64,000 bases of DNA, taken from the IMG/VR virus record IMGVR_UViG_3300029935_000001, positions 137,867 to 201,866 of that record; one strand, 5' to 3'. The notes beneath the pieces are model-generated. The model saw only the letters and a program-made list of their open reading frames with translations. It did no database searches and had not been told where the DNA came from. The stretch is from a virus. Its lineage: Duplodnaviria; Heunggongvirae; Uroviricota; Caudoviricetes. Position 1 is the first letter of the stretch. Every line of letters starts with the position of its first letter. The translations under genes were made by a program, and so were the position numbers. Of the stretch, positions 15,249-31,603 are shown piece by piece.

Positions 15249-15408
15249 TCTAAAACGACTGGCGGGAATTGGGCAACCGAGCCAATTCGCGCAAGCTGTT
15301 TCGCAGTCAATTGACCGAGCTGCTATTATGCGCGAACAAAATATAAAACCAGGCACAGATGCCTGGTTTCGCCTGTGGTTCACAAAACCACAGGCGAAAC
15401 CTTACTGA
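15235..15408 (+). CDS. Small conserved phage protein (57 aa; not in ORF track)
   Basis: MEIVDLKRLAGI...MREQNIKPGTDAWFRLWF; motif recalled from T4-like phage proteins. Confidence 0.65.
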   Translation: MEIVDLKRLAGIGQPSQFAQAVSQSIDRAAIMREQNIKPGTDAWFRLWFTKPQAKPY

Positions 15409-15935
15409 TTTACCGCAGCTCGGCCGGCACCGATATACTCAACCCACGATGGGTGACGAACGTGAGTGATGGTTTGCTTAACTGAATTTGCGATTTTGTG
15501 ATAGTCGGGTTTAAACGGTGTCCACAACGGAGCTTGGAGTTTGGCTCCTTTTTTGTGATTACACTTCCAGCACGAAGTGATAGTGTTAGCCCAAGTGTGC
15601 GGCCCGCCGTGCGCCCTCGGCACGACGTGGTCAACAGTTAGATCGCGATGGTCGAAAGTATCGCCACAGTACCCGCAGCGGTATAAGTCGCGCAGGAACA
15701 AATTGTCGCGAGTAAACGCCACTGATCGTTTACGTTTGTTATACCCTACTTTTGACACAATCACCGCTGGCACTCGCATGGTGAGCTTAGCTGAGTGGAT
15801 CACCCAATCGTCGTACCATTCCATCACTGAGGCCTTTTCGAGAAAAAACAAGCGCAGGGCTTGTTGCCAGTGAATAGTTGATAATGGTAAGAAGTTTAGT
15901 GGTTGGTAGTCAGGACCAAGGACAAGTGTGTGCAT
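15402..15935 (-). CDS. HNH endonuclease (McrA-like)
   Basis: FTRDNLFLRDLYRCGYCG..TVDHVVPR..GG..W.N....C..CN..K; likely start ATG 15935 after TAAATA at 15944-15949. Confidence 0.85.
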   Translation of the reverse strand: MHTLVLGPDYQPLNFLPLSTIHWQQALRLFFLEKASVMEWYDDWVIHSAKLTMRVPAVIVSKVGYNKRKRSVAFTRDNLFLRDLYRCGYCGDTFDHRDLTVDHVVPRAHGGPHTWANTITSCWKCNHKKGAKLQAPLWTPFKPDYHKIANSVKQTITHVRHPSWVEYIGAGRAAVNQ

Positions 15936-16021
15936 GATAAGTATATTTACAAAGATTTTATAACCATGAGCAATAATAACACAACTTGGGGATGCTGTCA
16001 ACCCCTTGCACGGAGAAATAA

Positions 16022-16942
16022 ATGTCAAAAACATTAGAAGGGGTATTGATCAAGCGCCCCCACCAAAAGCTTAACTATACTGATCAGCATGTAAAAGAAA
16101 TGCTCAGTTGCATGGACCCAATTTCTGGCCCTGAGTATTTTATGTCAAACTTTTTTCACATACAGCACCCTACACGTGGTCAAATGCTGTATCAACCGTT
16201 TGAGTATCAAAAGCAACTGATTCACACCTACCACAACTACCGCTTTTCGATTTCGATGATGCCGCGCCAATCTGGGAAATCGACCAGCGCAGCAGGCTAT
16301 TTGTTATGGTATGCTATGTTTGTGCCAGATTCGACTATCCTAATTGCTGCACACAAGTATCTTGGCGCCCAAGAAATTATGCAGCGCATTCGATACGCGT
16401 ATGAAGCATGCCCAGATCATATTCGCGCTGGCGCAGTGAGTTATAACAAAGGATCGCTTGAGTTTGACAACGGATCTCGTATTGTAGCTCAAGCGACTAC
16501 CGAAAACACCGGTCGCGGTATGTCTATTTCGTTGTTATACCTTGACGAGTTTGCGTTCGTTAGGCCAACTATTGCTTCTGAATTCTGGACATCTATAACT
16601 CCAACGTTGTCAACTGGTGGTAAAGCGCTAATTACATCTACTCCAAACTCCGACGAAGATCAGTTCGCGCAAATTTGGAAGGCCGCCAATAAAACCGAAG
16701 ACGAGTATGGCAATCCCACTGAATTAGGTAAAAACGGATTTAAAGCGTATCGCTCATACTGGCATGAACATCCAGATCGTGACGAAAAATGGGCCAATGA
16801 GCAGCGTGCGCAGTTAGGCGATGAACGCTTTCGGCGTGAAATTGGCTGTTTAACAGGAAATTCAGTAGTCACCATTAAAATGGCCACTGGAGAAATAAAA
16901 CGCGTTTCGATGCTTGAATTACGTCAGATATTGAGTTTATAA
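16022..16942 (+). CDS. terL: Terminase large subunit N-terminal half plus IntN of a split intein
   Basis: Walker A PRQSGKS, LLYLDEFAF, STPN; extein ends RREIG, followed by CLTGNSVV.. Confidence 0.92.
   Translation: MSKTLEGVLIKRPHQKLNYTDQHVKEMLSCMDPISGPEYFMSNFFHIQHPTRGQMLYQPFEYQKQLIHTYHNYRFSISMMPRQSGKSTSAAGYLLWYAMFVPDSTILIAAHKYLGAQEIMQRIRYAYEACPDHIRAGAVSYNKGSLEFDNGSRIVAQATTENTGRGMSISLLYLDEFAFVRPTIASEFWTSITPTLSTGGKALITSTPNSDEDQFAQIWKAANKTEDEYGNPTELGKNGFKAYRSYWHEHPDRDEKWANEQRAQLGDERFRREIGCLTGNSVVTIKMATGEIKRVSMLELRQILSL
16847..16939 (+). mobile_element. Split intein N-fragment (31 aa)
   Basis: Block A CLTGNSVVTI at the terL junction, then TAA. Confidence 0.85.
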
Positions 16943-16948
16943 AGAGCC

Positions 16949-17287
16949 ATGGACGACTTTCTAATAAAAAATAATAAACAAATTCAGGTGTTAACTGATA
17001 CAGGGTGGTCGGACTTTTTAGGCATTGCTGATCGAGGGTATAAACAGTCTATGGAAATTTTCCTCAGCAATGGGAGAAAAATCCATAGCACATTAGACCA
17101 TAAGATTTTTCTGTCCTCGGGTCAAGCAGTAGCGGCCGCTTCGTTGAGAGTAGGGGATTGTGTTTATAGCGCCACTGGCTATACGACCGTCGTAAAAATT
17201 GCGTTAGCTGACGAAGAATTTGTTTATGATCTAATAGAGGTGGAGCGAAACCGCCGATATTATGCGAATGATATTTTAGTCTCAAAC
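16949..17287 (+). mobile_element. Split intein C-fragment (113 aa)
   Basis: Ends ILVSN followed by Cys+1 at 17288. Confidence 0.85.
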
Positions 17288-18031
17288 TGCGAATTCATCA
17301 TCGCCGACGAGACGCTAATTCAAGGCACCATTTTAGCAGAAATGGAAGGGATTGAGCCGATCGAAAAGCTCGGCCAAGTTCGATGGTACCAACCAATAAA
17401 AAAAGGAAAAATATACACTGTAGCATTAGACCCAAGCCTTGGCACCGGCGGCGATCCGGCAGCAATCCAAGTTTTCGAAGCAGGGTCTACCAGCCAGGTA
17501 GCTGAGTGGAAACATAATAAAACACCAATACCGCAGCAAATTAAAGTATTTGTTGAAATTATAAAACATATTCATTCAATAACCAACGAGCAACTAAACA
17601 TTTACTACTCAGTCGAAAACAACACTATCGGAGAAGCTGCGCTGATTAGTTTGAGCGACTACGGCGAAGAAAATATCCCAGGGATATTCTTATCAGAGCC
17701 TAAGCGGGCCGGTAACAGCCGTCGACATCGCAAAGGATTTTTGACCACGCCATCGTCAAAACTGTCGGCTTGCTCAAAACTAAAAACATTAGTTGAAAAT
17801 AAGAAAATGAAGATTTATTCTAAGTCTCTTATTTCTGAGCTGAAGAATTTTGTTGCCAGTGGCCAATCTTATGCTGCTAAAGTAGGCGAAACTGATGATT
17901 TAGTAATGGCAACTGTATTAACTGTCAGGATGTTTCAGCTGTTGCAGAATTATCACAAAGAGCTTGGTGACCAAATACGCGACCACTCAGACGAAGTTAT
18001 CGCTCCTATGCCCTTTGTGGTAGTTTTCTAA
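16949..18031 (+). CDS. terL: IntC (113 aa) plus terminase large subunit C-terminal nuclease half
   Basis: Block B STLDHKIF, block F VYDL, block G VSN/C; extein CEFI..ALDPSLGTGGD..VENN..DDLVMA. Confidence 0.92.
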   Translation: MDDFLIKNNKQIQVLTDTGWSDFLGIADRGYKQSMEIFLSNGRKIHSTLDHKIFLSSGQAVAAASLRVGDCVYSATGYTTVVKIALADEEFVYDLIEVERNRRYYANDILVSNCEFIIADETLIQGTILAEMEGIEPIEKLGQVRWYQPIKKGKIYTVALDPSLGTGGDPAAIQVFEAGSTSQVAEWKHNKTPIPQQIKVFVEIIKHIHSITNEQLNIYYSVENNTIGEAALISLSDYGEENIPGIFLSEPKRAGNSRRHRKGFLTTPSSKLSACSKLKTLVENKKMKIYSKSLISELKNFVASGQSYAAKVGETDDLVMATVLTVRMFQLLQNYHKELGDQIRDHSDEVIAPMPFVVVF

Positions 18032-27133: not shown

Positions 27134-28153
27134 ATGGCAACTCTCGCAGAAATCCGGGCCCGTCTACAGGCTCAAGAAAACAAAGCCCAAGGTAAGTTTG
27201 ATCGTGACAGCGGCGACAACGCTATGTTTGCGCACTGGAACATGGAAGAAGGCACCACATCTTCGATTCGCTTTGCGCCAGACGGCGACGAAAGCAACCC
27301 ATACTTCTGGGTTGAAAAAGCGATGATCAAGCTCCCATTTAATGGAGTCAAAGGTGGCGACTCCAAGCAAGTTATCGTTCAGGTTCCGTGTATGGAAATG
27401 TGGAACGAAACTTGCCCGGTGCTTACTGAGGTTCGTCCCTGGTTCAAAGATCCGGCACTTGAAGACATGGGTCGCAAATACTGGAAGAAGCGCACTTACC
27501 TGTTCCAGGGCTTTGTGCGTGAAAATTCGCTTGTTGATGACAAAGCGCCAGAAAACCCAATTCGCCGGTTCATTCTAAGCCCGCAACTGTTTCCAATTGT
27601 TAAGGCTGCGCTGCTCGATCCCGAGCTCGAAAACCTACCAACCGATTACATCCACGGTCTCGACTTCCGTATTACCAAGACCAGCAAGGGCGGATTTGCT
27701 GACTACAGCACTTCTACTTGGTCGCGTCGCGAGTCTGCACTTACTGAAGCCGAACGCGCAGCCATTGAAAAGTATGGTCTGCCAAAGCTAAGTGACTTCC
27801 TTCCGAAGAAGCCGTCGAGCATCGAGCTCCAGGTGATCAAGGAAATGTTCGAAGCGTCAGTTGACGGTATGGCTTACGACCCAGATCGTTGGGCTGCTTA
27901 CTACCGTCCAGGTGGCATGCCAGCACCGCAGTCTGACCGCAAAGAAGCCGCTCCTGCTACTACAGCAACACCGCGCCCAGCGTCAACTGCGCCTGCTGCT
28001 AGCACCGGTGCCCCATGGGAAGACACCGCGCAAGCTGCTGCTGACTCGATCGCAGTCCCAACCCCTGCTAAAGCTGAAGAACCAGCAGGCGGCGAAGACA
28101 AAGCCGCAGCAATCCTGGCTATGATTCGTAGTCGTCAGACCAAACCTGCTTGA
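27134..28153 (+). CDS. gp32: Single-stranded DNA-binding protein (T4 gp32-like)
   Basis: IRFAPDGD..FWVE..CMEMW..CPV..YWKKR..IRRF..G.DFRI.K..GFADYS.S; low-complexity tail. Confidence 0.88.
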   Translation: MATLAEIRARLQAQENKAQGKFDRDSGDNAMFAHWNMEEGTTSSIRFAPDGDESNPYFWVEKAMIKLPFNGVKGGDSKQVIVQVPCMEMWNETCPVLTEVRPWFKDPALEDMGRKYWKKRTYLFQGFVRENSLVDDKAPENPIRRFILSPQLFPIVKAALLDPELENLPTDYIHGLDFRITKTSKGGFADYSTSTWSRRESALTEAERAAIEKYGLPKLSDFLPKKPSSIELQVIKEMFEASVDGMAYDPDRWAAYYRPGGMPAPQSDRKEAAPATTATPRPASTAPAASTGAPWEDTAQAAADSIAVPTPAKAEEPAGGEDKAAAILAMIRSRQTKPA

Positions 28154-28168
28154 TCAGTAGTGTCGCTC

Positions 28169-28200
28169 AGTGGGTCGCGCATGCTATTGCGCGACCCACT
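28169..28200 (+). terminator. Strong hairpin after ssb
   Basis: AGTGGGTCGCGCA-TGCTAT-TGCGCGACCCACT, 13-bp stem. Confidence 0.7.
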
Positions 28201-28225
28201 ATTCATTTATTATGGAGTTAAATTC

Positions 28226-28465
28226 ATGGCACGCCCTTTTGACGTTTCAAAGTTCAGAAAAACAATTACTAAAGCCATCGAAGGTCTTTCGATTGGATAC
28301 AATGACCCCGATACCTGGGTGTCAACAGGCAATTACGCACTTAATTACCGCATTTCAAACGATTTCAACAAAGGCATTCCTTTAGGCAAAGTCACTGTGT
28401 TTGCTGGCGAATCTGGATGCCTTCCTGAATCTGCAAAAGTAAGAATTCGGATAAGCAATAAATAA
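28226..28465 (+). CDS. uvsX: UvsX/RecA-like recombinase N-terminal fragment plus 15-aa IntN
   Basis: ATG 28226 after GGAG; STGNYALNY.IS..KGIPLGKVTVFAGESG, then CLPESAKVRIRISNK*. Confidence 0.9.
   Translation: MARPFDVSKFRKTITKAIEGLSIGYNDPDTWVSTGNYALNYRISNDFNKGIPLGKVTVFAGESGCLPESAKVRIRISNK
28418..28462 (+). mobile_element. Split intein N-fragment (15 aa)
   Basis: Block A CLPESAKVRI inside the P-loop, then TAA. Confidence 0.85.
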
Positions 28466-28472
28466 TTTTAAC

Positions 28473-28516
28473 CCGCATTCTCCAGCATTTGTATAAATAA
28501 TGCAAGGAGAATGCGG
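28473..28516 (+). promoter_or_regulatory. RBS-sequestering hairpin with late promoter in its loop
   Basis: CCGCATTCTCC (28473-83) pairs with GGAGAATGCGG (28506-16); TATAAATA at 28492-99. Confidence 0.8.
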
Positions 28517-29616
28517 TGTTAAACAAAGAAGCGACTCGTTTTTTAAAAAGAAAGAGTGTTAAATCTATTTTAGCAGACAAGGTGTTAACTGGTATGCATT
28601 ATGCCAAGTTGAACCGACTTTTTAATAAGTTTAGGTGTAAAGAACTTGAAAATATGCATACAACTATTGCTAAGTTTGTGCTATATGATTTAAATAACTA
28701 CGAAGGAAGGCTCCGTCGTCTTGCCGGAATTCCAGGGACATCTGAATATACACAATTATTACGATACGGAAAGCACCAGTTCAGAGAAGTTTTACATTCT
28801 CAAGCTAAGCGGAAAACCTTACATTTTGCAAATACTATAGAACATTGGATAGCAAAAGGTATGACCGAAATTGAAGCAGCTAAAAAAGTAATAGAGTGTC
28901 AAAAATCAAGAAGTGCAAGATCACCTTCTGCGCAAAAAGGCGCAAATGAATATTCGCCGCGGTGTGTTGGCTTTTGGATTAAACAAGGGTTATCCGAAGA
29001 ACAGGCAAAAATAGAAGTTGGAAAAATTCAGCGCCGGCAGCATACCAACGAGAGAAATGATAGATGGCAGGCTACACTTAACTCAAAATCCGATGCCGAA
29101 AAAGAGTTAATAAACAAGAAAAAAGGGCATTCCATTGATGCATATATTCTTAGAGGACTATCGCTTAGTGACGCCATAGCAGCATCAACTAATTACTACG
29201 CAAAACGAAATAATTATTCAAAAAGTTCGCAAGTTTTCTTCGGACTATTGGAAATGGCTGTAGGACACTCGGATGTTTATTATAAAGTAAAAAATTATGA
29301 AAAACAGTTCTCTGGCAAATGTGTAGATTTTTATGATGCTCGCGCCGAAGTGGTAGTTGAATATTACGGAGATTTTTGGCATCGAAACCCAAATAGATAC
29401 GCAAGTGATTTTGTTGCATATAACAAATCATCGTCTCAAATTTGGTTAGAAGATAATATTCGAGTCTCGAGAATAATATCAGCTGGCGTTAACAAAGTTA
29501 TAATTGTGTGGGAAAGTGAAGTCTTATCAAATCCTCAAGAATGTGTTAACAAAATATTAGGAGAAATTAATGGAAATCAAAGAAGTTACAGTGAAAGAGT
29601 TAAACGAGTTATATAA
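28516..29616 (+). CDS. Free-standing Vsr-like homing endonuclease between the split-intein halves
   Basis: C-terminal VDFYD..VVVEYYGDFWH..D..R...VIIVWE; repeated W..KG helical motifs; visibly AT-rich. Confidence 0.82.
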   Translation: MLNKEATRFLKRKSVKSILADKVLTGMHYAKLNRLFNKFRCKELENMHTTIAKFVLYDLNNYEGRLRRLAGIPGTSEYTQLLRYGKHQFREVLHSQAKRKTLHFANTIEHWIAKGMTEIEAAKKVIECQKSRSARSPSAQKGANEYSPRCVGFWIKQGLSEEQAKIEVGKIQRRQHTNERNDRWQATLNSKSDAEKELINKKKGHSIDAYILRGLSLSDAIAASTNYYAKRNNYSKSSQVFFGLLEMAVGHSDVYYKVKNYEKQFSGKCVDFYDARAEVVVEYYGDFWHRNPNRYASDFVAYNKSSSQIWLEDNIRVSRIISAGVNKVIIVWESEVLSNPQECVNKILGEINGNQRSYSERVKRVI

Positions 29617-29941
29617 CTCGGGTAAATTTAATATAGAAATTGACACTCCTGATGGATTTCAGCCTGTCACTAATTGGTTTAATAAAGGCATTTTACCGAT
29701 GGTCCAAATTGAAACCGAATCGGGACTTATTACTAATTGTGCGGTTAATCACTTGCTACAACTCGACACAGGTGAATGGATCCCAGCCGGGCAATTAACC
29801 GTCGGTCAACAATTATTAACAGTCAACAGTCCCAGCGACGAAGTGACACAAGTACAAGACTCAGACGATGAAAAATGCTTTGACTTTACCGTAGACCACT
29901 TTAATCATAGGTACTGGGGTGACGGTTTTTCCAGTCACAAC
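29570..29941 (+). mobile_element. Split intein C-fragment (124 aa)
   Basis: Ends HN; Ser+1 at 29942. Confidence 0.87.
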
Positions 29942-30838
29942 TCTGGCAAGTCGTATATTTGCTCGGGTAACATTATTAAAAACGCACAAGAGCAGGGCAT
30001 CTTTGTGGTGCTGATTGACTCAGAAAACGCGCTCGATGAAGAATGGCTCAAAGCGCTCGGTGTTGACACCAGCGAAGACAAGCTGCTCAAGCTCAACATG
30101 GCTATGATTGACGACGTTGCCAAAACGATTTCGGAGTTTATGAAAGAGTATCGAGCAATGCCCGAAGGCGAATCTAAGCCCAAGGTGCTGTTCGTTATCG
30201 ACTCGCTTGGTATGCTGCTCACGCCAACCGACATTAACCAGTTTGAGGCCGGCGACCTCAAAGGCGACCTTGGCCGTAAGCCCAAAGCGCTTACTGCGTT
30301 GGTGCGCAACTGTGTGAACATGTTTGGCAGTCACAACGTAGGGATGGTAGCCACTAATCATACCTACGCAAGCCAAGACATGTTCGACCCCGATGACAAG
30401 ATCTCGGGCGGCCAAGGCTTTATCTACGCGAGCTCGATCGTAGTCGCAATGCGCAAGCTCAAGCTCAAAGAAGACGAGGACGGCAACAAGATCTCTGAGG
30501 TGCGCGGTATTCGCGCAGCGTGTAAGGTAATGAAGACACGTTACGCCAAGCCTTTCGAGTCGGTACAAGTCAAGATTCCGTACGACACAGGGATGAACCC
30601 ACATTCGGGACTAACTGACATGTTCGAAGCAATGGGTCTGCTCAAGAAAGAAGGCAACAGTTTGGTATATGTAACGTTAGATGGCGAAATTATCAAACAG
30701 TTCCGCAAAGCCTGGGAGCGAAACGACAACAACGGACTGACGAAGATAATGGAAGAAATTCCAATTCGAGAACAAATGTCCGGCACCGCAACCGAAGAGC
30801 CCGATATCATACCAGATCCCGACGAACTTGGTGAGTAA
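29570..30838 (+). CDS. uvsX: IntC (124 aa) plus UvsX/RecA-like recombinase C-terminal part
   Basis: Block B CAVNHLL, F CFDFTV, G SSHN/S; extein SGKSY..DSENALD..VIDSLG..NHTY..SGGQG. Confidence 0.92.
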   Translation: MEIKEVTVKELNELYNSGKFNIEIDTPDGFQPVTNWFNKGILPMVQIETESGLITNCAVNHLLQLDTGEWIPAGQLTVGQQLLTVNSPSDEVTQVQDSDDEKCFDFTVDHFNHRYWGDGFSSHNSGKSYICSGNIIKNAQEQGIFVVLIDSENALDEEWLKALGVDTSEDKLLKLNMAMIDDVAKTISEFMKEYRAMPEGESKPKVLFVIDSLGMLLTPTDINQFEAGDLKGDLGRKPKALTALVRNCVNMFGSHNVGMVATNHTYASQDMFDPDDKISGGQGFIYASSIVVAMRKLKLKEDEDGNKISEVRGIRAACKVMKTRYAKPFESVQVKIPYDTGMNPHSGLTDMFEAMGLLKKEGNSLVYVTLDGEIIKQFRKAWERNDNNGLTKIMEEIPIREQMSGTATEEPDIIPDPDELGE

Positions 30839-30844
30839 AAGAAA

Positions 30845-30864
30845 AAAAGGGCTTCGGCCCTTTT
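30845..30864 (+). terminator. Intrinsic terminator
   Basis: AAAAGGGC-TTCG-GCCCTTTT. Confidence 0.85.
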
Positions 30865-30884
30865 GCTATATAAGAGCATAGACA

Positions 30885-31145
30885 ATGAAAGGACATACAA
30901 TGAATCTCGATTTAGTAGTAGACACTTGGGAAGCGCTCAAGCACTATTTACACACTACCGAAATTAACGAAGCTGCTGAAGCGCTGGTTACTGTGCTAAT
31001 TGATGCGCATGGAGTAGACCCACAAGATGCGTATGACGCGTTTGAAGGGTATCCTGCAGTTCGTAAAGTGCTTGCGCACTACTTAACGCACGACGCCGAC
31101 GAAGTTGATGACGAGCTTGAAGAACTGGATTTTGAAGACGACTAA
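30885..31145 (+). CDS. Acidic hypothetical protein
   Basis: 86 aa (alternative start 30900). Confidence 0.65.
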   Translation: MKGHTMNLDLVVDTWEALKHYLHTTEINEAAEALVTVLIDAHGVDPQDAYDAFEGYPAVRKVLAHYLTHDADEVDDELEELDFEDD

Positions 31146-31603
31146 TGAGTCACTGGTATAACAAGATTACTGCTAATATAGCAGAAATCCCTAACTTCAT
31201 TACATACTACGAACATGAACTTGCAGAAGCTAAAAAAGAATGTCAAATTGCTGGCAACTTAGAGCGTGCTGCTGCTAACTTGCCTGGCATTACTGAGCAT
31301 AGATTTAACCAGCTTCAAGAAATTGAAGCTGTGTTGAATTTTTTGAATATTCAGTTGCGAAAAATTCGCCGCAAGCACTTTCAAAATTACTTAGAAAAAT
31401 ATAACCGGGCTTTGTCGAGTCGCGACGCGGAAAAATACACCGACGGCGAACAAGAAGTGATTGATTATGAAACTATTATCAATGACGTGTCGTTGGTAAG
31501 AAACAAGTTCCTTGGAGTAATCAAGGCATACGAGTCTAAAAACTTTATGCTTGGTCACGTAATACGCCTCCGCACAGCTGGTATGGAAGATATCTCATTA
31601 TGA
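31145..31603 (+). CDS. uvsY: Recombination mediator (UvsY-like)
   Basis: Coiled coil with LSSRDAEKY.DGE..V..RNKFLGVIKAYESKNF.LGHVIRLRTAGMED. Confidence 0.75.
   Translation: MSHWYNKITANIAEIPNFITYYEHELAEAKKECQIAGNLERAAANLPGITEHRFNQLQEIEAVLNFLNIQLRKIRRKHFQNYLEKYNRALSSRDAEKYTDGEQEVIDYETIINDVSLVRNKFLGVIKAYESKNFMLGHVIRLRTAGMEDISL

What the first reader, a model, noticed from the sequence alone, without database searches (positions are those of the whole stretch)
28226..30838. uvsX is fractured by an atypically split intein with a 15-aa N-fragment, with a homing endonuclease between the halves
Seen: the recombinase ORF reads ..FAGESG|CLPESAKVRIRISNK* inside the P-loop. A 366-aa Vsr-like endonuclease ORF follows, then an ORF whose first 124 aa carry intein blocks B, F and G (CAVNH, CFDF, SHN) followed by Ser. 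Joining the exteins gives the intact Walker A GESGSGKS. Known: fractured phage genes with a Vsr-like endonuclease between split-intein halves have been described, and the VidaL UvsX split intein has a similarly tiny IntN (about 16 aa as I recall). Inference: active UvsX needs protein trans-splicing, and a 15-aa Cys1/Ser+1 IntN is among the shortest natural ones, so it may be a useful labelling tool.
Basis: partly seen in the sequence, partly recalled or inferred. Interest (0 to 1): 0.85.

Follow-up and report, generated by a model that had tools for sequence, protein, structure and literature searches.

The report
VidaL-type split intein fracturing phage uvsX
The recombinase gene of this 323-kb wastewater jumbo phage is broken in its ATP-binding loop by a split intein with a 15-residue first half and a selfish nuclease gene between the halves; this is a natural relative of the already well-studied VidaL intein, so it is real but not new in kind.

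Summary
uvsX lies in two ORFs, 28226-28465 and 29570-30838. A 366-aa endonuclease gene (28516-29616) sits between them.

- **N piece:** it ends GESG|C plus 14 more residues, a 15-aa IntN.
- **C piece:** it opens with a 124-aa IntC ending SSHN|SGKS.
- **Joined exteins:** they give GESGSGKS, the motif found in intein-free alleles.

IntC matches the solved VidaL intein (PDB 6VGV) at E=6e-35. The endonuclease's C-terminal domain folds like Vsr and the homing endonuclease I-Bth0305I (Z 10-11). Its 5' region has the RBS-sequestering hairpin with TATAAATA, and its 3' end overlaps the next ORF. Both are features described for 'fractured genes' (Dassa 2009).

The genome holds no second uvsX.

The layout is common:
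- 59 of the 120 best N-fragment clusters are split the same way, and 15 aa is the most frequent IntN length.
- Cultured Pseudomonas phage PA5oct and its relatives carry the same layout, annotated only as hypothetical proteins.
- Salicola phage SCTP-2 has the unsplit form.
- The VidaL locus itself has lost the endonuclease.

Verdict: a new member of a known kind. Splicing itself is untested.

The parts
28226..28417 (+). uvsX N-extein (64 aa), ending in the first half of Walker A (FAGESG)
   Evidence: ORF list. Matches phrog_97 'UvsX-like recombinase' at E 1.5e-10 and the N-terminus of UvsX PDB 9GBG at E 0.003. Collinear with intein-free uvsX in 77 IMG/VR loci.
28418..28465 (+). IntN, 15 aa (CLPESAKVRIRISNK), plus TAA stop
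   Evidence: Family consensus is CLPxxAKVxIRxxxK, with Cys1 and Pro3 conserved in at least 90% of 52 sequences. Predicted to dock into IntC.
28473..28516 (+). RNA hairpin upstream of the endonuclease gene. The 11-bp stem (28473-28483 / 28506-28516) buries RBS AAGGAG (28504-28509) and the first base of the GTG start. The loop holds TATAAATA (28492-28499).
   Evidence: Sequence. Fold -29 kcal/mol, z -7.9, 0 of 200 shuffles as good. Same feature as reported for fractured genes (PMC2677866). Analogous hairpin in PA5oct.
28516..29616 (+). Free-standing homing endonuclease gene (366 aa): helical N-terminal region plus a Vsr-like/I-Bth0305I-like catalytic domain (residues ~233-356)
   Evidence: AF2 model pLDDT 90. 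VIA-align: 1CW0_A Z 10.9 (rmsd 3.0, 115 aligned), 1VSR Z 10.5, 3R3P_B Z 10.0. Invariant E282, G285, H289, W332, E333; D271, D286, W288, D313 conserved in at least 90%. GC 0.356 against 0.499 for the C-extein.
29570..29941 (+). IntC, 124 aa, ending SSHN. Its start codon and RBS (AGGAG 29559-29563) lie inside the 3' end of the endonuclease ORF (47-nt overlap).
   Evidence: PDB 6VGV VidaL at E 6.3e-35. T, C, A and H of block B, blocks F and G, and the terminal HN are invariant in 20 alleles. Sequence.
29942..30838 (+). uvsX C-extein (298 aa), starting SGKS (Ser+1, second half of Walker A), plus stop
   Evidence: Pfam RecA 46.9 bits against a cut-off of 27. Only RecA/UvsX match in the 323-kb genome.

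Best explanation
This is a 'fractured' uvsX. A class-1-type mini-intein of the VidaL UvsX lineage sits in the Walker A loop, between GESG and SGKS. A free-standing Vsr-like (I-Bth0305I-type) homing endonuclease gene has broken it in the loop after its second beta-strand (the S1 site).

Proposed mechanism:
1. Two polypeptides are made: a 64-aa N-extein carrying the 15-aa IntN, and the 124-aa IntC carrying the 298-aa C-extein.
2. IntN inserts as strands into IntC and completes the HINT fold.
3. Cys1, the block B His, the terminal His-Asn and Ser+1 carry out protein trans-splicing.
4. The product is a 362-aa UvsX with an intact GESGSGKS P-loop.

The endonuclease spreads the unit by cutting alleles that lack it. 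Its translation is held back by a hairpin that buries its RBS and start codon. Its 3' end supplies the RBS and start codon for the IntC ORF.

Shown here: the anatomy, the homology, the fold, conservation across alleles, and the absence of another uvsX. Inferred: splicing activity, endonuclease activity and target, and the role of the hairpin.
For: Intein:
- IntC matches VidaL 6VGV at E 6.3e-35.
- Catalytic positions are invariant in 20 alleles.
- IntN is conserved in 52 sequences.
- The exteins rejoin to the motif found in 77 intein-free alleles, GESG[A/S]GKS.
- There is one RecA-family locus in a complete, terminally repeated genome.

Predicted N-fragment/IntC complex: score 0.79, best of 3 controls 0.00. 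That mark was reached by 58 of 80 solved complexes and 2 of 110 mismatched pairs. The runs share at least 68% of contacts, and partner pLDDT is at least 46. The interface is exactly residues 63-79 of the N fragment against IntC 1-25, 55-62, 101-105 and 115-123. A VidaL structure is solved, so the pass may reflect that likeness.

Endonuclease:
- Vsr and I-Bth0305I are the top structural matches.
- tblastn finds 'putative VSR endonuclease' in the Aeromonas phage PolB split-intein loci.
- Hairpin z is -7.9.
- The HEG ORF overlaps the IntC ORF by 47 nt.
- The insert has low GC, 0.369 against 0.499.

Same layout elsewhere: 14 IMG/VR loci and the PA5oct group. Unsplit forms occur in SCTP-2 and L005. 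Split forms without the endonuclease occur in L004 and in L007, which is VidaL itself.

The intein tree rejects pairing the window with L004, its closest extein relative (p-AU 0.0014). That fits lateral movement of the intein.
Against: - No splicing assay, junction peptide or transcript data exist for this phage.
- The complex prediction may be memory of 6VGV.
- Sequence profiles alone do not reach Vsr. Pfam and a PDB profile search gave no significant hit. Only 3 of 36 homologues touch MTES_1575 or DUF559, and only weakly.
- TATAAATA is not enriched in the window (3 found, 2.5 expected). Its role as a promoter in this phage is therefore doubtful.
- The tree clades were named after the trees were seen, and the reverse test on exteins is only borderline (p-AU 0.055).
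Confidence: 0.88

Rival explanations
1. The intein is functional, but the endonuclease gene is a decaying passenger that no longer cuts DNA. The locus would be on its way to the endonuclease-free split state seen in VidaL.
For: Endonuclease-free split alleles exist (L004, L007). Laid contigs from four other runs showed no allele lacking the insert, so current mobility is not demonstrated.
Against: The ORF is full length and intact. All positions invariant across 36 homologues are kept: E282, G285, H289, P292, W332, E333. The model is confident, pLDDT 90. The RBS, hairpin and overlap are intact.
Confidence: 0.15
2. The split intein has lost activity, and uvsX is a dead, fragmented gene in this phage.
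For: No direct evidence of splicing. Jumbo phages can tolerate loss of some recombination genes.
Against: All catalytic residues are present and invariant across alleles. Both ORFs have good RBSs. Exteins are 60-86% identical to relatives, with no stops. There is no replacement uvsX. The same layout is kept in many independent phages, including cultured, viable PA5oct-group phages.
Confidence: 0.05
3. The interruption is removed at the RNA level (a group I intron carrying the endonuclease) or skipped by the ribosome, not by protein splicing.
For: Vsr-like endonucleases also occur in recA group I introns (PMC2677866).
Against: There is no Rfam intron match in 27900-31200, even at E up to 1. The flanks of the insert encode a recognisable HINT domain homologous to a solved intein. 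The C fragment has its own RBS and ATG.
Confidence: 0.01

Closest known systems
VidaL UvsX split intein (PDB 6VGV/6VGW; Neugebauer 2017 and Burton 2020, as cited in PMC13014065)
   Same: Same host gene and same insertion point (GESG|C...HN|SGKS). Same S1 split after beta-strand 2. Cys1/Ser+1. IntC of about 124 aa, E 6.3e-35. IntN follows the same CLPxxAxVxxR pattern.
   Different: IntC is only about 55% identical. IntN is 15 aa rather than 16. The window keeps a 366-aa endonuclease gene between the halves, whereas the VidaL-like locus L007 has only a 58-nt spacer. This allele is uncharacterised biochemically.
Fractured genes of Dassa et al. 2009 (PMC2677866)
   Same: Two adjacent same-strand ORFs of a DNA-metabolism enzyme carry split-intein halves. 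A free-standing Vsr-like endonuclease gene lies between them. A hairpin with TATAAATA sits upstream of its start. Its 3' end overlaps the downstream ORF.
   Different: uvsX is not among the eight fractured enzyme types named there. In that paper UvsX appears only as an upstream neighbour of gp41 loci. The passages read do not discuss split position (the search term 'split site' had no occurrence). Here the break is at the atypical S1 site, giving a 15/124 division.
I-Bth0305I (PDB 3R3P) and E. coli Vsr (1CW0/1VSR)
   Same: The C-terminal catalytic domain shares the fold (Z 10.0-10.9). The acidic residues and the WH motif are conserved.
   Different: Sequence identity is only 15-18%. I-Bth0305I is intron-encoded in recA, while this one is free-standing inside an intein. 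The N-terminal ~230-residue helical region has no match tested here.
Pseudomonas phage PA5oct group, gp276/gp275/gp274 (NC_071039)
   Same: Identical three-ORF layout. IntN is 17 aa. The endonuclease is 37% identical and IntC 54% identical. There is an analogous RBS hairpin.
   Different: The endonuclease is longer (477 aa). The records annotate the pieces as hypothetical proteins plus 'UvsX-like recombinase'. The MIJ3 paper reports a PolB split intein but does not mention this one (PMC6892783).
PolB16 OarG, AceL-TerL and GOS-TerL atypically split inteins
   Same: Natural split inteins with short IntN of 15-37 aa (PMC13014065, PMC10189870).
   Different: They have different host genes. PolB16 is cysteine-less. 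The TerL inteins split at S2, after helix 1.

Membership tests
Class-1-type split intein, VidaL UvsX lineage | Significant sequence homology of the splicing domain to VidaL | tested here: met
   phmmer against PDB: 6VGV_A at E 6.3e-35, covering residues 2-126 of 126.
Class-1-type split intein, VidaL UvsX lineage | Nucleophile at intein position 1 and at extein +1; block B His; terminal His-Asn | tested here: met
   Cys1 (28418), Ser+1 (29942), TNCAVNH and SSHN are present in the window. They are invariant in 20 alleles.
Class-1-type split intein, VidaL UvsX lineage | Atypical split giving a very short IntN (S1 site, after beta-strand 2) | tested here: met
   IntN is 15 aa. Alignment with unsplit alleles (L003, L005) puts the break between KVxIR and VTVxEL. 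The S1 definition comes from PMC13014065.
Class-1-type split intein, VidaL UvsX lineage | The two halves associate | tested here: met
   Model only: score 0.79 against best control 0.00. The mark was reached by 58 of 80 solved complexes and 2 of 110 mismatched pairs. Runs share at least 68% of contacts; partner pLDDT is at least 46. The pass may reflect the solved VidaL structure.
Class-1-type split intein, VidaL UvsX lineage | Catalyses protein trans-splicing | not testable with these tools
   Needs expression and SDS-PAGE/MS.
Fractured gene (Dassa 2009) | Host gene halves with intein halves flank a free-standing endonuclease ORF on the same strand | tested here: met
   ORFs 28226-28465, 28516-29616 and 29570-30838, all on the + strand.
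Fractured gene (Dassa 2009) | Hairpin over the endonuclease RBS/start, often with TATAAATA; 3' overlap with the downstream ORF | tested here: met
   Hairpin -29 kcal/mol, z -7.9. TATAAATA at 28492-28499. 47-nt overlap. Compared with PMC2677866.
Vsr-like (I-Bth0305I-type) homing endonuclease | Vsr-type catalytic fold | tested here: met
   1CW0_A Z 10.9 (rmsd 3.0, 115 aligned), 1VSR Z 10.5 and 3R3P_B Z 10.0 (98 of 98 aligned) are the three top rows over residues 233-356. The next rows, Z 9.3-9.6, are RAP/FASTK-type domains.
Vsr-like (I-Bth0305I-type) homing endonuclease | Conserved acidic residues, the invariant Glu and the F-W-H motif of Dassa's three motifs | tested here: met
   VDFYD (D271), VVEYYGDFWH (E282, D286, W288, H289), D313 and VWE (W332, E333) are invariant or at least 90% conserved in 36 homologues. 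Correspondence to the Vsr residues is by motif, per PMC2677866.
Vsr-like (I-Bth0305I-type) homing endonuclease | Sequence-profile match to Vsr/DUF559-type families | tested here: inconclusive
   No Pfam hit for the window protein. 3 of 36 homologues hit MTES_1575 (best E 4e-4) and 3 hit DUF559 (best E 0.04). The profile against PDB sequences found nothing.
Vsr-like (I-Bth0305I-type) homing endonuclease | Site-specific DNA cleavage and homing | not testable with these tools
   Needs an in vitro cleavage assay or mixed infection.
UvsX/RecA recombinase | RecA-fold ATPase core with Walker A | tested here: met
   Pfam RecA 46.9 bits against cut-off 27 on the C fragment. N fragment matches phrog_97. 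Spliced Walker A GESGSGKS equals that of intein-free alleles.

The most novel reading that the evidence does not exclude
The endonuclease lineage seen here may be what creates natural 'atypical' split sites.

Its distant relatives (25-30% identity) sit between a short IntN and a long (over 100 aa) IntC in other P-loop genes of large phages: TerL, UvsW-type helicases and a probable gp46/Rad50-like gene. For uvsX the whole series survives: intein-free, unsplit mini-intein, endonuclease-fractured, and endonuclease-free split.

If so, short-IntN split inteins are the footprint of one endonuclease family's preference for the N-terminal loops of one intein clade. The window's allele would be the intermediate that VidaL has lost.
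Probability: 0.45. Interest if true: 0.5.

Novelty: new member of a known kind. Interest (0 to 1): 0.3.

Why it matters
**Tool development.** This is one more natural VidaL-type allele (about 55% identical IntC, 15-aa IntN). The survey shows a panel of at least 59 natural IntN variants of 14-27 aa that could be mined for faster, more extein-tolerant or mutually orthogonal short-tag split inteins.

**Biology.** The locus keeps the endonuclease that the characterised VidaL locus lacks. Together with the unsplit alleles, it documents how a split at a non-canonical site can arise.

**Experimental access.** The same layout is present in cultured Pseudomonas phage PA5oct and its relatives. It is not annotated there, and none of the papers I could search describes it. 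That gives a tractable system for asking whether an essential-pathway recombinase really depends on trans-splicing during infection.

None of this would surprise an intein specialist.

Tried and rejected
- **Group I intron or other RNA element in 27900-31200:** no Rfam match at E up to 1 apart from a chance lncRNA hit.
- **Vsr by sequence:** Pfam on the window protein and an A2 profile against PDB sequences found nothing significant. Foldseek E-values for the whole model were also weak (best Vsr row E 0.35). Only the domain-level structural alignment was clear.
- **IntN against PDB by sequence:** the 25-aa query gave no hit. It is too short.
- **TATAAATA as a general late promoter of this phage:** 3 copies in 64 kb against 2.5 expected, so not supported.
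- **Expression:** no RNA holder is listed for the stretch. One wastewater library labelled RNA-Seq holds contigs over parts of the endonuclease and IntC regions. Its RNA nature is a guess, so nothing is concluded.
- **Alleles lacking the insert in four other runs:** no joints were seen. Contigs are short and cover is patchy, so this says nothing either way.
- **Burton 2020 (PMC7275667) and Bachmann & Mootz 2015 (PMC4661395):** not held. Statements on VidaL rest on PMC13014065 and on PDB 6VGV.
- **Extein/intein tree discordance:** only one of two post hoc AU tests was significant. I treat it as suggestive.
- **Shared frame:** the N and C ORFs share a reading frame here, but not in L084, so this is coincidence.
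Full report
**What is there.** The window is part of a complete 323,407-bp virus record with direct terminal repeats. DNA similarity puts it among jumbo phages, with Atu_ph07, PA5oct and Rak2-like uvsX as the nearest matches. The source is a wastewater metagenome.

A gp32-like gene and a terminator-like hairpin (28169-28200) lie upstream. Three + strand ORFs follow:
1. ATG 28226 to 28465, 79 aa. This is the UvsX N-terminus ending FAGESG, followed by 15 residues starting with Cys and then a stop.
2. GTG 28516 to 29616, 366 aa.
3. ATG 29570 to 30838, 422 aa. Its first 124 aa end SSHN, and the rest begins SGKS and matches RecA (Pfam 46.9 bits against cut-off 27).

Each ORF has a Shine-Dalgarno sequence at normal spacing.

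**It is an intein of the VidaL lineage.** The 124-aa IntC matches PDB 6VGV 'VidaL' at E 6.3e-35 over its whole length, at roughly 55% identity. The next hits are the gp41-1, DnaB, DnaE and RecA inteins.

In an alignment of 20 alleles, these positions are invariant:
- T, C, A and H of block B;
- C.DF...H.NHRY.GD of block F;
- the terminal SHN.

IntN follows the family pattern CLPxxAKVxIRxxxK. Intein-free uvsX alleles read GESG-A/S-GKS at this point (77 of 80 IMG/VR loci). Splicing would therefore restore a normal Walker A motif.

A complex prediction of the 79-aa N fragment with IntC plus 36 extein residues gave a score of 0.79 against a best control of 0.00.
- That mark was reached by 58 of 80 solved complexes and 2 of 110 mismatched pairs.
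- The runs share at least 68% of contacts, and partner pLDDT is at least 46.
- The interface is exactly residues 63-79 of the N fragment against IntC 1-25 and blocks B, F and G.
- VidaL has been solved, so this shows likeness rather than independent proof.

**The middle gene is a Vsr-like homing endonuclease.** Sequence profiles do not reach Vsr. An AlphaFold model built on 36 homologues has pLDDT 90. Its residues 233-356 align best with:
- E. coli Vsr: 1CW0_A at Z 10.9, rmsd 3.0, 115 aligned; 1VSR at Z 10.5;
- the catalytic domain of I-Bth0305I: 3R3P_B at Z 10.0, 98 of 98 aligned.

The family-invariant residues fall in VDFYD, VVEYYGDFWH, D313 and VWE. These correspond to the three motifs and the extra invariant Glu that Dassa et al. 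described for their Vsr-like family (PMC2677866). tblastn also finds the 'putative VSR endonuclease' of the Aeromonas phage PolB split-intein loci.

**Control elements match the 'fractured gene' description.**
- The 50-nt spacer upstream of the endonuclease folds into a hairpin of -29 kcal/mol (z -7.9). Its 3' arm contains the RBS and the first base of the GTG start, and its loop contains TATAAATA.
- The endonuclease ORF overlaps the IntC ORF by 47 nt and so carries that ORF's RBS and ATG.
- Dassa et al. report hairpins in 15 of 16 loci, TATAAATA in 10, and such overlaps in 15.
- PA5oct has an analogous hairpin with GATAAATA.
- TATAAATA is not enriched in this window. If it acts as a promoter at all, it probably came in with the endonuclease.
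- The insert is AT-rich: GC 0.369 against 0.499 for the C-extein.

**How common it is.** Of the 120 best N-fragment clusters in the protein collection, 59 are split in the same way. IntN lengths in those 59 clusters are:

| IntN length (aa) | 14 | 15 | 16 | 17 | 18 | 19 | over 19 |
|---|---|---|---|---|---|---|---|
| Clusters | 1 | 29 | 12 | 5 | 6 | 4 | 2 |

Fourteen IMG/VR loci show the same N fragment / endonuclease / IntC-uvsX order.

In cultured phages:
- The PA5oct group (11 records) has gp276 (IntN 17 aa), gp275 (477-aa endonuclease) and gp274 (IntC-UvsX). These are annotated as hypothetical proteins plus a recombinase.
- The MIJ3 paper notes a PolB split intein but not this one.

Other states of the same site also exist:
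- Salicola phage SCTP-2 and locus L005 carry the unsplit form of the same intein at the same site.
- L004 and L007 are split without any endonuclease.
- L007's IntC is about 98% identical to the crystallised VidaL, and its IntN is 16 aa.

All four states are therefore seen for one insertion site: empty, unsplit, fractured with endonuclease, and split without endonuclease. This is the series proposed in Dassa's gene-breaking model.

The window's closest extein relative is L004, at 86% identity. L004 carries a different intein lineage. Forcing the two inteins together is rejected (p-AU 0.0014). The reverse test on exteins is borderline (p-AU 0.055). Both clades were named after seeing the trees. 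This fits lateral movement of the intein but does not prove it.

**Wider context.** More distant relatives of the endonuclease (25-30% identity) lie between a short IntN and a long IntC in other P-loop genes:
- TerL (L098);
- UvsW-type helicases (L097, L118);
- a probable gp46/Rad50-like gene downstream of an SbcD-like gene (L107, L109, L116, L130, L133, L134, L155). Pfam did not name this host, so the assignment is inferred.

The same window also holds an atypically split TerL intein with no endonuclease. Its IntC is only 21% identical to the UvsX one.

**Is the gene needed and alive?** The genome has a single RecA/UvsX locus. Independent samples hold the same arrangement:
- a contig from another study bridges 28146-28550 with one mismatch;
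- a roughly 90-94% identical relative in a third study also has endonuclease sequence in place.

No run gave usable RNA evidence.

**Verdict.** The element is a natural allele of a family that is already solved, kinetically characterised and used as a tool: VidaL has a 16-aa IntN and a half-time of about 1 min (PMC13014065). Its 15-aa IntN is the family's commonest length and only ties the published record (PolB16 OarG; PMC10189870). It is a new member of a known kind.

The points of modest value are:
- the retained endonuclease;
- the full evolutionary series at one site;
- the unannotated occurrence in cultured PA5oct-group phages;
- the large natural panel of IntN variants.

Splicing, cleavage and hairpin control remain inferred.

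Noticed in passing
window 16022-18031 (+): The terminase large subunit is also in two ORFs. The first ends ...FRREIG|C plus 30 more residues (31-aa IntN). The second opens with an IntC of about 113 aa ending VSN|CEF. Only 6 nt separate them and no endonuclease lies between. Its IntC is 21% identical to the UvsX IntC (pairwise E 1e-7).
   Followed up: partly
window 15402-16034 (-): A 210-aa ORF with an HNH-like motif (DHVVPRAHGG...CNHKKG) lies directly upstream of, and antisense to, the split terminase gene. It may be another mobile nuclease.
   Followed up: no
L002 (NC_071039 134722-137728) and 10 related Pseudomonas phage records: PA5oct-group phages carry the same fractured uvsX: N fragment with 17-aa IntN, 477-aa endonuclease, IntC-UvsX. 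The records annotate the first two as hypothetical proteins. The papers I could search do not mention it.
   Followed up: partly
L003 2743-4713 (Salicola phage SCTP-2 gene 204); L004 4806-6531: SCTP-2 uvsX holds two unsplit inteins: the VidaL-type one in the P-loop and a second at ISGG|C...HN|SGQ. In L004 that second site carries a split intein whose N half is long, so uvsX there is in three pieces.
   Followed up: partly
L097, L098, L107, L109, L116, L118, L130, L133, L134, L155: Distant relatives of the endonuclease sit in other P-loop genes (TerL, UvsW-type helicase, probable gp46-like). They lie between IntN tails of roughly 30-40 aa and long IntC parts related to the UvsX IntC (27-37% identity).
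   Followed up: partly
L093 3475-3801: One allele's IntC ORF appears to lack the first helix (VTVxEL) at its N-terminus. It may be a degenerate copy or a mis-assigned start.
   Followed up: no
window 28169-28200: A strong terminator-like hairpin (13 pairs, 9 G-C) lies between the gp32-like gene and the uvsX N fragment. uvsX may therefore have its own transcript start.
   Followed up: no
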